Shown piece by piece: positions 16,735 through 51,547 of a DNA stretch of 59,846 nt (positions are counted from its first letter, which is position 1; every line of letters starts with the position of its first letter). The position numbers were made by a program, and so were the translations under genes. Under the pieces are notes generated by a model, which saw nothing but the letters and a program-made list of their open reading frames with translations, searched no databases and was not told the DNA's origin. Origin of the DNA: a phage; the NCBI GenBank assembly GCA_011982905.1, contig GCA_011982905.1_4767.1. One strand, written 5' to 3'.

Positions 16735-16998
16735 ATGTCTGACATGACTCTTTTACCTACTAATCTCGGTGGCGACGGTTTCGGCGGTGAAGCTGGTGCG
16801 GCTGGTATCGGTGGCGCGATCGGTGGCTTAATTGGTTCCTGGATCGGTAATGGTTGGGGTGGCAATGGTGGTTGGGGTGGTCGCGGTAACTTCGCCGGTC
16901 CGGTGGAAGTGCAAGCTTCTATTGACACCAACGCAATTCTGCAAGCTATCAACAACGGTACTCTTCAGACCATTCAGGGCAGAACGGTACTAACCTGA
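16735..16998 (+). CDS. glycine-rich small protein with possible double-glycine leader (MSDMTLLPTNLGG)
   Basis: 87-aa ORF with GGAGA RBS; residues 12-52 are Gly/Ala/Trp-rich (GGDGFGGEAGAAGIGGAIGGLIGSWIGNGWGGNGGWGG); flanked by promoter-like region and terminator-like hairpin. Confidence 0.45.
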   Translation: MSDMTLLPTNLGGDGFGGEAGAAGIGGAIGGLIGSWIGNGWGGNGGWGGRGNFAGPVEVQASIDTNAILQAINNGTLQTIQGRTVLT

Positions 16999-17120
16999 CT
17001 GTTGAGCGCTCCGCTGCTTCTACCTATAACGGTATTACTCAGCAGAACACTCAAAACCTACTGGCTTCCGTTCAGGGCTTTGCTGGTCTGAACACGCAGA
17101 TCCAGGGTGGCACCAGCCAA

Positions 17121-17441
17121 GTGCTCGCGGCTCTGTGTAACAACGAAGCAGCTAACATTACCCGTTCCTTCCAGGCGCAGCTAGAAGCTCAGAAGTGTTG
17201 CTGCGAAACCAACCTGAACATCGAGCGTCAAGCAGAAGCTACTCGTGCGCTCCTGCGCGATCAGCACGCACAGGCGCAAGCAGTTCTGATCTGTGACCTG
17301 AAATCTCAGTTGCAGGAAGCTCGCTTTGCAAACTCTCAGTTGGCACAAACGGCTGGTCTTACTTGTAAGATCAATCAGGTTGAGCAGTTAGTTAACTTTA
17401 AACTGCCAACTCCTCCGACTCCTCCGACTGGCTGCTGCTAA
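17121..17441 (+). CDS. Cys-containing Gln-rich ORF (GTG start; possibly continuous with upstream ORF)
   Basis: This frame is open from 16926, overlapping the 3' end of the 16735 ORF in the -1 frame, with no ATG before the GTG at 17121; contains CCC and C-terminal PTPPTPPTGCC. Confidence 0.35.
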   Translation: MLAALCNNEAANITRSFQAQLEAQKCCCETNLNIERQAEATRALLRDQHAQAQAVLICDLKSQLQEARFANSQLAQTAGLTCKINQVEQLVNFKLPTPPTPPTGCC

Positions 17442-49060: not shown

Positions 49061-49453
49061 ATGCTATTAGTCGTCACCGGAGGTCGAGATTTTAAGCATG
49101 TGGGGTATATTTACTCTCAACTGGATAAGCTACATATGCAAAGAAGGATAACCACACTTCGCCACGGTGACGCTGACGGTGTTGACCGGATTTGCGCACA
49201 TTGGGCGGAGCGCAACGGTATTAAGACAGAAGCTTTCCCTGCCCCGTGGGGCAATCTTTCCTTACCGAATACCAAGATACGGTATAACGCCAAAGGTGCT
49301 TATAATGCACAAGCTGGCGCTTACCGCAACCAATTAATGCTGGATACTGATCCTAAACCAGATCACGCTATCGTGTTTCCTGGCGGAGCTGGTACTATGG
49401 ATATGTACAGACGGATTAAAGCATCCGGTATCCCTTACACATTAGCGGAGTAA
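49061..49453 (+). CDS. DprA/SLOG-like Rossmann-fold protein (DUF2493-type)
   Basis: 130 aa; LLVVTGGRDF ... RHGDADGVDR ... YRNQ ... FPGGAGT pattern recalled from the DUF2493/SLOG family. Confidence 0.4.
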   Translation: MLLVVTGGRDFKHVGYIYSQLDKLHMQRRITTLRHGDADGVDRICAHWAERNGIKTEAFPAPWGNLSLPNTKIRYNAKGAYNAQAGAYRNQLMLDTDPKPDHAIVFPGGAGTMDMYRRIKASGIPYTLAE

Positions 49454-49456
49454 ATA

Positions 49457-49927
49457 ATGACTGACGTTAAAACTATTGTTGATGCAATGGACGAATCCAA
49501 AGACTGCCAACTGAAGAAGTCGTTTGAAGTAAAACAGGTTACAGAGACTCAGTTGGTCTGTAATTTTGCGCGTTATTGTGGACTGGGGCGCGGGAAAGAC
49601 TGGAACGGGCTTATTATTATGCCCACATCACAGATTCTTGTCTATGTCCGTAATGTTGTAGAAGATCTTTTGCGTCTTCAAATTGATATTGGCGACGTAG
49701 AAATTAACATGACCGCGAGCTCTACCATTGTGGTTAAATGGCAGTCGGGCGAGACACTGCGTTTGGAGGCGTGCCATTGTGCTAAGAGCTTGCACCACCT
49801 GCGCGGCTGTCATTATCAGTTCGTTGGGTTTGTACATCCGCAAGGGTTAAGCGAGCGTACGGCGCTGGTAGCGCGTTTGCTGCTGCGTCCTTATAATAAC
49901 GAGCCGGAAGTCATATACGAGGCATAA
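49457..49927 (+). CDS. hypothetical protein with Cys/His cluster
   Basis: 156 aa; CHCAKSLHHLRGCH near the C-terminus. Confidence 0.45.
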   Translation: MTDVKTIVDAMDESKDCQLKKSFEVKQVTETQLVCNFARYCGLGRGKDWNGLIIMPTSQILVYVRNVVEDLLRLQIDIGDVEINMTASSTIVVKWQSGETLRLEACHCAKSLHHLRGCHYQFVGFVHPQGLSERTALVARLLLRPYNNEPEVIYEA

Positions 49928-49928
49928 A

Positions 49929-50354
49929 ATGTCAGTAAATTTTGTCAAACAGCCAACTTTAAATACATGCGTTTCTGCGTGTTTGGCAATGATCCTTAAT
50001 AAACCTGTTGAGAAGGTCATTGAGGAATTTCATAGTCGTTATTATAACAACTGGGAAATCACTATCAGCGAATATTTGACTAAGAACGGCGTCCAGCATC
50101 ATTGTTCAGAAGGTGGGGGGCGTGAAACTTTGCATATGGGAGGTTTGTTCCTGTGCACGGTGCCAAGTCTTAATATTCCGGGCGCATTGCACCAGATTGT
50201 GATTGATATGACAGATCACAAGTTTATTGTGCATGATCCAATTAAAGGATGGGAAGGTAAGAAGTTCTATGTTGGTCCGGATCAAGATCCTGAAGAGCCT
50301 GGAGCTTTTATCATTCACACTTGGGTCAAAGACGTTGAAATCCTGCCTTATTAA
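49929..50354 (+). CDS. papain-like cysteine peptidase, C39-like
   Basis: 141 aa; N-terminal QPTLNTCVSACLAMIL matches the Q-x5-C-x2-A-x-L-A-M-I-L signature of bacteriocin-processing C39 peptidases; downstream His (IVHDP) and Asp (GPDQD) at the expected spacing. Confidence 0.55.
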   Translation: MSVNFVKQPTLNTCVSACLAMILNKPVEKVIEEFHSRYYNNWEITISEYLTKNGVQHHCSEGGGRETLHMGGLFLCTVPSLNIPGALHQIVIDMTDHKFIVHDPIKGWEGKKFYVGPDQDPEEPGAFIIHTWVKDVEILPY

Positions 50355-50416: not shown

Positions 50417-50602
50417 ATGACCAAACTATACGCCGGATTGTTTTTATTTGCGACGTTAATGTTCGCTGGGCTTTATACCTATACAGTAGTCGAACAACCT
50501 TCCACGGTTATCCGAATCTTTGCAAGTACAGGGCTTTGCATCTGTCTTATTCTATTTGTTTTATGTATTGTTATTATCCAAGACCAAAGGAAAGTTAAAT
50601 GA
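50417..50602 (+). CDS. small membrane protein (2 TM)
   Basis: 61 aa, two hydrophobic helices. Confidence 0.4.
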   Translation: MTKLYAGLFLFATLMFAGLYTYTVVEQPSTVIRIFASTGLCICLILFVLCIVIIQDQRKVK

Positions 50603-51069
50603 CTGAAGAATGGAAAACAATACCTTTATTTCCAAAGTATGAGGTTTCCACTTTAGGTAGAGTTAGGAGGGCTAACAACCACAAAATATTGACCGGATGC
50701 ATATTAGATGGTCGTAGACGTTATACTTTGCGTCACAATGGTAAGAAATACGGTGTTGATGCTGCAAGATTGATGTGTTACGCATTTCGTGGTCTTGTCG
50801 ACGGTTATGAGAAACTAGATGCACGACATCTTGATGGCAATCCTTTGAATAATGTATTATCTAACGTAGATTGGGGTACACGTAAGGATAACATGGTGGA
50901 CATGGTCCATCATGGTAACGCTTGTCATTCGTTTACAAAGGAAGAAGTTCTAAGTATCCAGCAAAGAGCAGATGCTGGGGAAAGTCAACACGCTATAGCA
51001 AGAAGTATTGGCAGAAGCGTATCCGTTGTTAACTGTATTGTATTAAGAAAGACTTATAACGAATATTAA
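50599..51069 (+). CDS. HNH homing endonuclease
   Basis: 156 aa; N-terminal EWKTIPLFPKYEVSTLGRVRR (NUMOD4-like) and HNH core ARHLDGNPLNNVLSNVDWGTRKDN. Confidence 0.7.
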   Translation: MTEEWKTIPLFPKYEVSTLGRVRRANNHKILTGCILDGRRRYTLRHNGKKYGVDAARLMCYAFRGLVDGYEKLDARHLDGNPLNNVLSNVDWGTRKDNMVDMVHHGNACHSFTKEEVLSIQQRADAGESQHAIARSIGRSVSVVNCIVLRKTYNEY

Positions 51070-51085
51070 TGGGGGGTGGGTTATC

Positions 51086-51547
51086 ACTACTATTGCGTTT
51101 GATGGAAAAGTATTAGCTGCGGACCGTGGCGTTATGCGCGGGGAAGCTGTGACTGCTTATAAGAAAGTTCATAGCGTGAATGGACATCGTGGACGGTTTT
51201 TACTGGGCTTGTGCGGCCTTACAGCATTTACCGATCAGGTGTTGCGTTACTTTAATAGCGCGGAACCTGTTAAGTTCCCAGATATTAAACTTTACAGCAA
51301 AGATGATAATTACGGGCAAACTTGCGGTCTTGCGGTTACTCCGGAAGGTACTTGCCATTTTATTTATAATGATGGTACTTTGAGCGAGCCCATGCTGGAT
51401 GGATGGGGGTCTGAGGGTAGCGGTTGTGTGTTTGCTGCTGGCGCGTTAGCTGCTGGTGCAAGTGCGAGCGAAGCTATTGAGTTGGCAATTAAACACACCA
51501 CATGCGCATTCCTGGGAGTTGATACAATATCATTTGAGGGTTTTTAA
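51086..51547 (+). CDS. HslV/proteasome-like Ntn-hydrolase homologue (translation start unresolved)
   Basis: The frame open from 51047 encodes TTIAFDGKVLAADRG...KKV...GSEGSGCVFAAGALAA, paralleling the HslV N-terminus (TTIV...GDGQ...KKV...GSGG); the first in-frame ATG is at 51134, after the catalytic-type Thr; an ATG at 51069 is out of frame by one base across a G6 run. Confidence 0.45.
   Translation, partial: TTIAFDGKVLAADRGVMRGEAVTAYKKVHSVNGHRGRFLLGLCGLTAFTDQVLRYFNSAEPVKFPDIKLYSKDDNYGQTCGLAVTPEGTCHFIYNDGTLSEPMLDGWGSEGSGCVFAAGALAAGASASEAIELAIKHTTCAFLGVDTISFEGF

What the first reader, a model, noticed from the sequence alone, without database searches (positions are those of the whole stretch)
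49929..50354. Stand-alone papain/C39-like cysteine peptidase among early accessory genes
The 141-aa protein begins ...VKQPTLNTCVSACLAMIL, matching the Gln-x5-Cys oxyanion/catalytic spacing of papain-fold enzymes and the A.LAMIL signature of C39 bacteriocin-processing peptidases, with candidate His (IVHDP) and Asp (GPDQD) downstream. C39 domains normally sit on ABC exporters; a free one in a phage, flanked by a DprA/SLOG-like protein and a Cys/His-rich unknown, suggests a processing or anti-host role. It could be the partner of the double-glycine-like peptide at 16735.
Basis: partly seen in the sequence, partly recalled or inferred. Interest (0 to 1): 0.65.

Follow-up and report, generated by a model that had tools for sequence, protein, structure and literature searches.

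The report
Free-standing phage C39-type cysteine peptidase

Summary

A free C39 domain in a phage is not rare. The family (phrog_4049) has 823 representatives at 50% identity, nearly all stand-alone and about 140 aa, in lytic and temperate phages. UniRef already calls the CAjan copy a "Peptidase C39 domain-containing protein". No neighbouring gene is conserved across 21 lineages: no transporter, immunity gene or substrate.

The proposed partner at 16735 is the frameshifted N-terminus of a 235-aa tail-fibre-region protein. That protein is intact in CAjan and in KarlJaspers, a T1-like phage with no C39-like gene.

Most likely this is a cytoplasmic, site-specific endopeptidase acting alone on a host protein. 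The target is unknown, and no functional study was found.

The parts
49929..50354 (+). Gene for the 141-aa stand-alone C39-type cysteine peptidase (CAjan gp84 orthologue, phrog_4049)
49919..49922 (+). Shine-Dalgarno-like GAGG, 6 nt upstream of the ATG; the upstream gene's TAA stop (49925..49927) lies one base before the start, which suggests translational coupling
   Evidence: Read directly from the sequence. Overlapping or abutting junctions with flanking ORFs occur in many lineages.
49950..49952 (+). Codon for Gln8, the predicted oxyanion-hole residue, six residues before the nucleophile
   Evidence: Q in 106/107 relatives. Aligns with Q21 of LahT150 and with the Gln of the 9l5u C39-like fragment.
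49968..49970 (+). Codon for Cys14, the predicted catalytic nucleophile, at the N-terminus of helix 14-23
   Evidence: C in 106/107 relatives, Ser in one. Helix 14-23 in the model. Aligns with C27 of LahT150.
50190..50192 (+). Codon for His88 (GALHQIV), the predicted catalytic histidine, at the start of strand 87-93
   Evidence: H in 107/107 relatives. Aligns with H101 of LahT150 and with the His of the 9l5u C39-like fragment.
50235..50237 (+). Codon for Asp103 (HDP), the predicted third catalytic residue, followed by invariant Pro104
   Evidence: D in 107/107 and P104 in 107/107 relatives. Aligns with the DP motif of LahT150 (D117) and of the 9l5u fragment.

Best explanation
The gene encodes a minimal, single-domain papain-fold cysteine endopeptidase of the C39 type. 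Cys14 is the nucleophile, His88 and Asp103 complete the triad, and Gln8 forms the oxyanion hole (shown by sequence conservation and a confident structure model). It belongs to a large phage-restricted family and is made in the cytoplasm of the infected cell. It lies in a tightly packed block of small accessory genes, and in other phages the family usually sits within or beside the replication/recombination module (shown). It has no fused transporter or toxin-delivery domain, and no conserved neighbouring transporter, immunity or substrate gene within 5 kb, so it acts as a free enzyme (shown). By analogy with every characterised C39 enzyme, I infer that it makes a site-specific cut next to a Gly-Gly-type motif in one or a few proteins. 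The family is shared by very different phages of gammaproteobacteria without any conserved phage partner, so the target is more likely a conserved host protein (host takeover or counter-defence) than a phage protein (inferred). The target is not identified.
Against: No biochemical data exist for any family member, and close viral structure neighbours are all 'Uncharacterized protein'. The window protein itself is below Pfam's C39 threshold. TM-scores to solved C39 domains are only about 0.5. Gly-Gly specificity is inferred by analogy only. Expression timing in Seuratvirus is unknown: the same-strand block also ends in the lysis genes, and the promoter/terminator scan was uninformative. The host-versus-phage target argument is based on parsimony, not on data.
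Confidence: 0.6

Rival explanations
1. One reading: the enzyme is a leader peptidase that matures a phage-encoded double-glycine peptide, specifically the product of the ORF at 16735.
For: The N-terminus MSDMTLLPTNLGG|DGFGG resembles a short GG leader. C39 enzymes cut after GG.
Against: The 16735 ORF matches positions 1-81 of a 234-position family (phrog_9288), and a second ORF at 17121 matches positions 129-233. CAjan and KarlJaspers encode it as one protein of 235 and 233 aa next to the tail-fibre genes. The window copy is split by a one-G deletion. KarlJaspers keeps the same N-terminus but has no C39-like gene in six frames. Matches to the C39-like protein include 53 Vibrio and 18 Pseudomonas phage records, whereas at most 3 of the 155 records matching the phrog_9288 protein could come from those genera. 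No small GG-leader gene is conserved beside the peptidase in 21 lineages.
Confidence: 0.04
2. Topoisomerase-targeting host shut-off: like the C39 toxins Cpe1 and StbD-CT, the enzyme cleaves host GyrB/ParE in the ATP-lid LHAGGKF motif.
Confidence: 0.08
3. Deconjugating counter-defence enzyme: it removes ubiquitin-like or CD-NTase conjugates made by bacterial Ubl-conjugation defences (Bil-type, CBASS Cap2-type) by cutting after their C-terminal Gly-Gly-like tails.
Against: This is purely analogical, and no paper linking a phage C39-like protein to these systems was found. DUB-type neighbours score well below the C39 peptidases. There is no PADLOC hit. The family is far more widespread than expected for a counter to relatively rare defence systems.
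Confidence: 0.07
4. Processing protease for the phage's own proteins (virion maturation or activation of a phage enzyme).
For: Many viral papain-like proteases process viral proteins (one search lists coronavirus PLpro and the FMDV leader protease as distant fold neighbours). The gene is translationally coupled to phage neighbours.
Against: There is no conserved phage neighbour or co-occurring phage gene within 5 kb in 21 lineages. The family occurs in Schizotequatrovirus and Kuttervirus phages, groups expected to carry dedicated prohead proteases (my own knowledge, not tested here). The gene lies in replication or accessory modules, not structural ones.
Confidence: 0.12
5. Accessory cell-wall endopeptidase released at lysis, like the papain-fold pseudomurein endoisopeptidases of methanogen viruses.
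Against: In most lineages the neighbours are replication or recombination genes. There is no cell-wall-binding domain. A separate endolysin is present. In lambdoid phages, proximity to lysis genes follows from the usual order nin region, Q, then lysis genes.
Confidence: 0.05
6. Catalytically dead C39-like binding domain (as in HlyB-type transporters) used only to bind a partner.
Against: Those domains lack the catalytic Cys (established knowledge for HlyB-type C39-like domains). Here Q8, C14, H88 and D103 are conserved in 106-107 of 107 relatives.
Confidence: 0.02

Closest known systems
C39 double-glycine leader peptidase domains of PCAT/AMS ABC transporters (PCAT1, ComA PEP, LahT150; Pfam PF03412, MEROPS C39)
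   Different: This protein is not fused to, or encoded near, any ABC transporter, and has no adjacent GG-leader substrate gene. It is phage-encoded. The window protein scores below the Pfam threshold. It carries family-specific conserved motifs (EFH, VPSLN, GKxYY). Its substrate is unknown.
C39 peptidase toxins Cpe1 (T6SS) and StbD-CT (CDI), which cleave GyrB/ParE
   Different: The toxins are fused to PAAR, Rhs or CdiA delivery and entry domains and are paired with an immunity gene. The phage protein is a bare domain with no conserved neighbour. There is no evidence that it cuts topoisomerases.
Stand-alone C39-like proteins (3erv, Bacillus anthracis) and Peptidase_C39_2 (PF13529)
   Different: Those proteins are larger, with extra decorations (200 aa for 3erv; described in PMC10318531). 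The window protein has no Pfam C39_2 hit. They are bacterial rather than phage proteins.
Pseudomurein endoisopeptidases PeiW, PeiP and PeiR of methanogen viruses (MEROPS C71)
   Different: The Pei enzymes are lysis enzymes with cell-wall-binding repeats that act on pseudomurein (PMC6189367, listed). The hosts here are Gram-negative bacteria, and the gene is usually in replication or accessory modules.

Membership tests
Peptidase C39 (MEROPS C39 / Pfam PF03412) | Papain-like alpha/beta fold closest to solved C39 peptidase domains | tested here: met
Peptidase C39 (MEROPS C39 / Pfam PF03412) | Catalytic Cys at the start of the first helix, with an oxyanion Gln six residues upstream | tested here: met
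   Q8 and C14 occur in 106/107 relatives. Helix 14-23. They align with Q21 and C27 of LahT150.
Peptidase C39 (MEROPS C39 / Pfam PF03412) | Catalytic His and Asp at C39-type spacing (about 74-75 and 15-17 residues) | tested here: met
   H88 and D103 are invariant in 107/107. Spacing is 74/15, against 74/16 in LahT150 and 75/17 in StbD-CT.
Peptidase C39 (MEROPS C39 / Pfam PF03412) | Score above the Pfam gathering threshold | tested here: not met
   14.3 bits against a cut-off of 22, E=0.037, residues 3-25 only. Ten of 107 relatives match at E<=0.01, best 2.4e-6. UniRef nevertheless names the CAjan copy 'Peptidase C39 domain-containing protein'.
Peptidase C39 (MEROPS C39 / Pfam PF03412) | N-terminal domain of, or encoded with, a bacteriocin/peptide ABC exporter | tested here: not met
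   Stand-alone 141-aa ORF. No ABC transporter among 124 neighbours in 21 lineages. Profile hits are almost all about 140 aa.
Peptidase C39 (MEROPS C39 / Pfam PF03412) | Cleaves after a Gly-Gly (or Gly-Ala/Ser) motif | not testable with these tools
   Needs an enzyme assay.
C39 interbacterial toxins (Cpe1 / StbD-CT type) | Fusion to a delivery domain (PAAR, VgrG, Rhs, CdiA) plus a cytoplasm-entry domain | tested here: not met
   The protein is a bare 141-aa domain. No such domains occur in the longer relatives scanned or among profile hits.
C39 interbacterial toxins (Cpe1 / StbD-CT type) | Cognate immunity gene immediately downstream | tested here: not met
   The downstream gene differs between lineages, and no cluster is shared by more than 5 of 21.
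C39 interbacterial toxins (Cpe1 / StbD-CT type) | Cleaves GyrB/ParE at LHAGGKF | not testable with these tools
   Only circumstantial: the Kuttervirus gene position between topoisomerase II genes, and a phage topoisomerase that lacks the Gly-Gly.
Non-catalytic C39-like domain (HlyB type) | Loss of the catalytic cysteine | tested here: not met
   C14 is present here and in 106/107 relatives.
phrog_4049 (phage protein family, function unknown) | Full-length match to the family profile | tested here: met
   E=9.4e-58, residues 2-140 on profile positions 2-140 of 145. The SeF6a homologue is annotated phrog_4049.

The most novel reading that the evidence does not exclude
This phage-wide family of bare C39 peptidases is a dedicated host-manipulation weapon. 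In this reading, a single specific cut after a Gly-Gly-type motif in a conserved host protein shuts down a host process or disarms an immune pathway, for example a type II topoisomerase as with Cpe1/StbD-CT, or a ubiquitin-like or CD-NTase conjugate of a defence system. That would make it a proteolytic counter-defence or takeover mechanism shared by lytic and temperate phages of gammaproteobacteria.
Probability: 0.25. Interest if true: 0.7.

Novelty: new variant of a known kind. Interest (0 to 1): 0.38.

Why it matters
C39 peptidases were long regarded as parts of peptide exporters. In 2025-2026 they were shown also to act as cytosolic toxins that cut one essential host protein. This gene shows a third deployment: a bare, catalytically intact C39 domain carried as an accessory gene by hundreds of phage lineages, including tractable E. 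coli, Salmonella, Vibrio and Pseudomonas phages. It has no transporter, delivery domain, immunity gene or linked substrate. Finding its target would assign a function to a sizeable piece of phage 'dark matter' and might reveal a proteolytic host-takeover or anti-defence mechanism. The fold itself is not a discovery, because public databases already flag it.

Tried and rejected
1. Direct sequence searches of the protein and of a 10-sequence profile against PDB chains gave only chance-level hits. The 107-sequence profile gave sub-significant hits, of which LahT150, PfhB2 and 9l5u aligned at the catalytic motifs.
2. NCBIfam and PADLOC gave nothing useful.
3. Word-indexed homologue searches stayed inside the family and produced no bridge to transporters or toxins.
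4. Neighbourhood analysis of 90 loci found no conserved partner, either by BLAST clustering or by pooled PHROG and Pfam scans of 124 flanking ORFs.
5. Longer family members gave no informative fusions: one YunG-like domain, one zinc ribbon, and the rest unannotated.
7. The AFDB50 fold library was unavailable.
8. The promoter/terminator scan was no better than shuffled sequence and did not fix expression timing.
9. Literature searches found no functional study of this family, in phage anti-defence papers, in the Seuratvirus comparative paper or in the Vid5 paper.
10. The 16735 partner hypothesis was rejected.
11. The dead-domain hypothesis was rejected on conservation.

Full report
**What is there.** The window is a Seuratvirus genome (Queuovirinae), 95-97% identical in this region to Escherichia phages CAjan, Seurat, SeppeHuegi and relatives. 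The ORF at 49929..50354 (+) exists as described. It encodes a 141-aa protein identical to CAjan gp84, which is annotated 'hypothetical protein'. A GAGG ribosome-binding site lies at 49919..49922, and the upstream gene's stop codon is one base before the ATG. PHROGs places the protein in phrog_4049, function unknown, with E=9.4e-58. Pfam gives only a sub-threshold match of residues 3-25 to Peptidase_C39 (E=0.037, 14.3 bits against 22).

**Family.** An exhaustive profile search found 823 cluster representatives at the 50% identity level. Of these, 503 have E<=1e-10, and nearly all are 135-160 aa with the match spanning the whole protein. tblastn finds matches in 197 deposited phage records: Seuratvirus, Nonagvirus, Kuttervirus, Vequintavirinae, Samunavirus, Enhodamvirus (VP2/VP5), a Schizotequatrovirus and an Erwinia jumbo phage. 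Hosts span Escherichia, Salmonella, Vibrio, Pseudomonas, Erwinia, Klebsiella and others. Twelve copies in Pseudomonas chromosomes share their neighbours with viral contigs (repressor-like, replication and NinG-like clusters), so they are lambdoid prophages. A scan of bacterial genomes with the close Seuratvirus profile found nothing.

**Fold and active site.** With a 107-sequence alignment, AlphaFold2 gives a confident model (mean pLDDT 95.8, pTM 0.90).
- Foldseek against the PDB ranks the peptidase domain of PCAT1 first (probability 0.99-1.00 for the top seven hits), with ComA PEP also listed.
- In the alignment (mean column identity 26%), H88, D103 and P104 are invariant, and Q8 and C14 are present in 106 of 107 sequences.
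- In the model, C14 opens helix 14-23, H88 begins strand 87-93, and D103 follows strand 100-102. This is the canonical papain arrangement.
- The spacing Gln-6-Cys-74-His-15-Asp compares with 6/74/16 in LahT150 (numbering read from the alignment) and with Cys183/His258/Asp275 in StbD-CT.
- Profile comparison with the 9l5u C39-like fragment (a DUF4150-domain protein) aligns all four positions (E=9e-5). Ten of 107 relatives reach Pfam C39 on their own (best E=2.4e-6).

The His is H88 in GALHQ, not H102 in IVHDP. The Asp is D103 of that HDP motif, not one in GPDQD.

**Is a free C39 domain in a phage unusual?** No. The family is large and phage-restricted. UniRef already names the CAjan protein 'Peptidase C39 domain-containing protein', a metagenome annotation matched it to ComA, and the SeF6a authors call it an 'ABC-type bacteriocin transporter peptidase domain'. 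What is missing is any functional knowledge. The closest viral structure-library neighbours (TM up to 0.89) are all 'Uncharacterized protein', and literature searches found no study of it.

**Context.** I called ORFs in 90 loci, of which 80 carried the family gene, falling into 21 lineages at 60% identity.
- By BLAST clustering, the best co-occurring gene cluster, a holin-like membrane protein about 2 kb downstream, is present in only 5 lineages.
- Pooling the three ORFs on each side from one locus per lineage (124 ORFs) and scanning PHROGs and Pfam, no family occurs in more than 3 lineages.
- The neighbours are mainly replication and recombination genes: helicases, lambda P, RusA, methyltransferases, ligase, Ead/Ea22 and topoisomerase II.
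- The gene often overlaps its flanking ORFs by 1-4 nt.
- No ABC transporter, immunity-like gene or small GG-leader gene travels with it. PADLOC has no match.
- In this window the flanks are a YAcAr/SLOG protein (49061..49453), a phrog_25149 unknown (49457..49927), a 61-aa hydrophobic (probably membrane) protein (50417..50602), an HNH homing endonuclease (50599..51069) and an HslV-family peptidase. An endolysin, holin and LysB-domain lysis protein follow further downstream.

**The proposed partner.** The ORF at 16735..16998 matches positions 1-81 of phrog_9288, a 234-position profile, and a second ORF at 17121..17441 in another frame matches positions 129-233. CAjan encodes the same gene as one 235-aa protein (gp21), directly after the tail-fibre gene. 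The T1-like phage KarlJaspers has a 233-aa homologue, annotated 'putative sugar-binding protein', after its lateral tail-fibre chaperone, with the same N-terminus MSDMTLLPTGGGFGG. The window differs from CAjan by one missing G in a GGGG run, and phage Skure has CAG>TAG at the adjacent codon. The 'peptide' is therefore a truncated fragment of a larger tail-region protein. KarlJaspers has no C39-like ORF in six frames even at E<=10, whereas the window has exactly one (E=8e-52). The distributions also differ. Matches to the C39-like protein include 53 Vibrio and 18 Pseudomonas phage records, but at most 3 of the 155 records matching the phrog_9288 protein could come from those genera. In the other direction, that protein matches more Escherichia and Salmonella records (65 and 60) than the peptidase does (46 and 34). 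I conclude the two genes are not a functional pair.

**How it most likely works.**
- Shown: a complete, strongly conserved catalytic apparatus in a confident C39-type fold, and a free single domain with no fixed genetic partner.
- Inferred: a cytoplasmic location, because the nucleophile is residue 14 of the primary product and leaves no room for a cleavable signal peptide.
- Inferred: specificity for a small-residue, Gly-Gly-type site, because all characterised C39 enzymes cut at such a motif. Transporter PEP domains cut after it, and the toxins Cpe1 and StbD-CT cut within it, in the LHAGGKF lid of GyrB/ParE.
- Inferred: a host rather than phage target, because very dissimilar phages share the enzyme but no partner.

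I put about 0.9 on the enzymology and about 0.6 on the whole statement. The identity of the target is open.

**A lead that stayed weak.** In five Kuttervirus-type loci the gene sits between the two phage topoisomerase II subunit genes. The phage large subunit reads LFAGSNF where GyrB/ParE have the LHAGGKF site that the toxins cut. This fits a scheme of cutting the host enzyme while sparing the phage's own. However, it holds in only 1 of 21 lineages, and lacking the Gly-Gly is, to my knowledge, a general trait of T4-type topoisomerases. Seuratviruses and lambdoid prophages show no topoisomerase of their own in the regions examined here, and lambda is known to need host gyrase. I give this rival about 0.08.

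**Verdict.** The protein is best filed as a phage-specific, free-standing variant within the C39 group of papain-fold peptidases. It meets the structural and catalytic criteria but not the Pfam threshold or the transporter association, and it lacks the architecture of the C39 toxins. Interest is moderate. The fold is already flagged in databases, but the family is large, apparently active, uncharacterised, and present in easily manipulated phages. The recent discovery of single-target cytosolic C39 toxins also makes a host-directed role directly testable.

Noticed in passing
window 16735..17441 (+); junction near 16975..16979: The tail-fibre-adjacent gene (CAjan gp21 homologue, phrog_9288, 235 aa, Gly-rich N-terminus and Cys-rich C-terminus) is split into two ORFs by a one-G deletion in a GGGG run relative to CAjan. 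Phage Skure carries a CAG>TAG nonsense change at the very next codon. These are two independent disruptions within 3 nt, which could reflect a sequencing error in a homopolymer, recurrent loss on laboratory hosts, or a recoding site.
   Followed up: partly
window 50599..51069 (+): An HNH/NUMOD4 homing endonuclease gene is inserted between the homologues of CAjan gp85 and gp86. It is absent from CAjan and most Seuratviruses, and the best match, SeppeHuegi, annotates a putative homing endonuclease in this region.
   Followed up: partly
window 51083..51547 (+): The HslV-family (Ntn-hydrolase-like) peptidase gene: CAjan gp86 starts MTTIAF..., with the Thr expected of a proteasome-type nucleophile. 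In the window the equivalent codon reads ATC (..GGWVITTIAF..) just downstream of the HNH insertion, and the first canonical in-frame start (ATG at 51134) would remove the N-terminal Thr. Either a non-canonical start is used or the gene is crippled here. This family co-occurs with the C39-like gene in 3 of 21 lineages.
   Followed up: partly
L002 3893..4423; L013-L016 (Kuttervirus-type loci): In these Ackermannviridae phages the C39-like gene lies between the topoisomerase II large-subunit and medium-subunit genes and overlaps both. The phage large subunit has LFAGSNF where bacterial GyrB/ParE have the LHAGGKF site cut by C39 toxins.
   Followed up: partly
window 49457..49927 (+): The Cys/His-rich 156-aa protein immediately upstream (phrog_25149) has a weak, sub-threshold similarity to DpdG (NCBIfam E=0.021). 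This is of possible interest in a phage genus known for 7-deazaguanine DNA modification, and the gene two upstream is a YAcAr/SLOG protein.
   Followed up: no
L006 3501..3902 (Klebsiella phage vB_Kpn_K23PH08C2): The tblastn match to the C39-like protein (30% identity, E=4e-15) lies on the strand opposite to two annotated structural genes ('unknown function' and 'minor head protein') in a record whose CDS features are all flagged partial or pseudo. This is either an annotation problem or an overlapping antisense ORF.
   Followed up: no
P0043, P0063, P0019, P0100, P0113, P0114 (family members of 230-300 aa): A few family members carry extra sequence: a C-terminal Phage_YunG-like domain (P0043), a zinc-ribbon-like tail (P0063), or unannotated N-terminal extensions of 95-155 aa. 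Whether these are real fusions or gene-calling artefacts was not checked.
   Followed up: no
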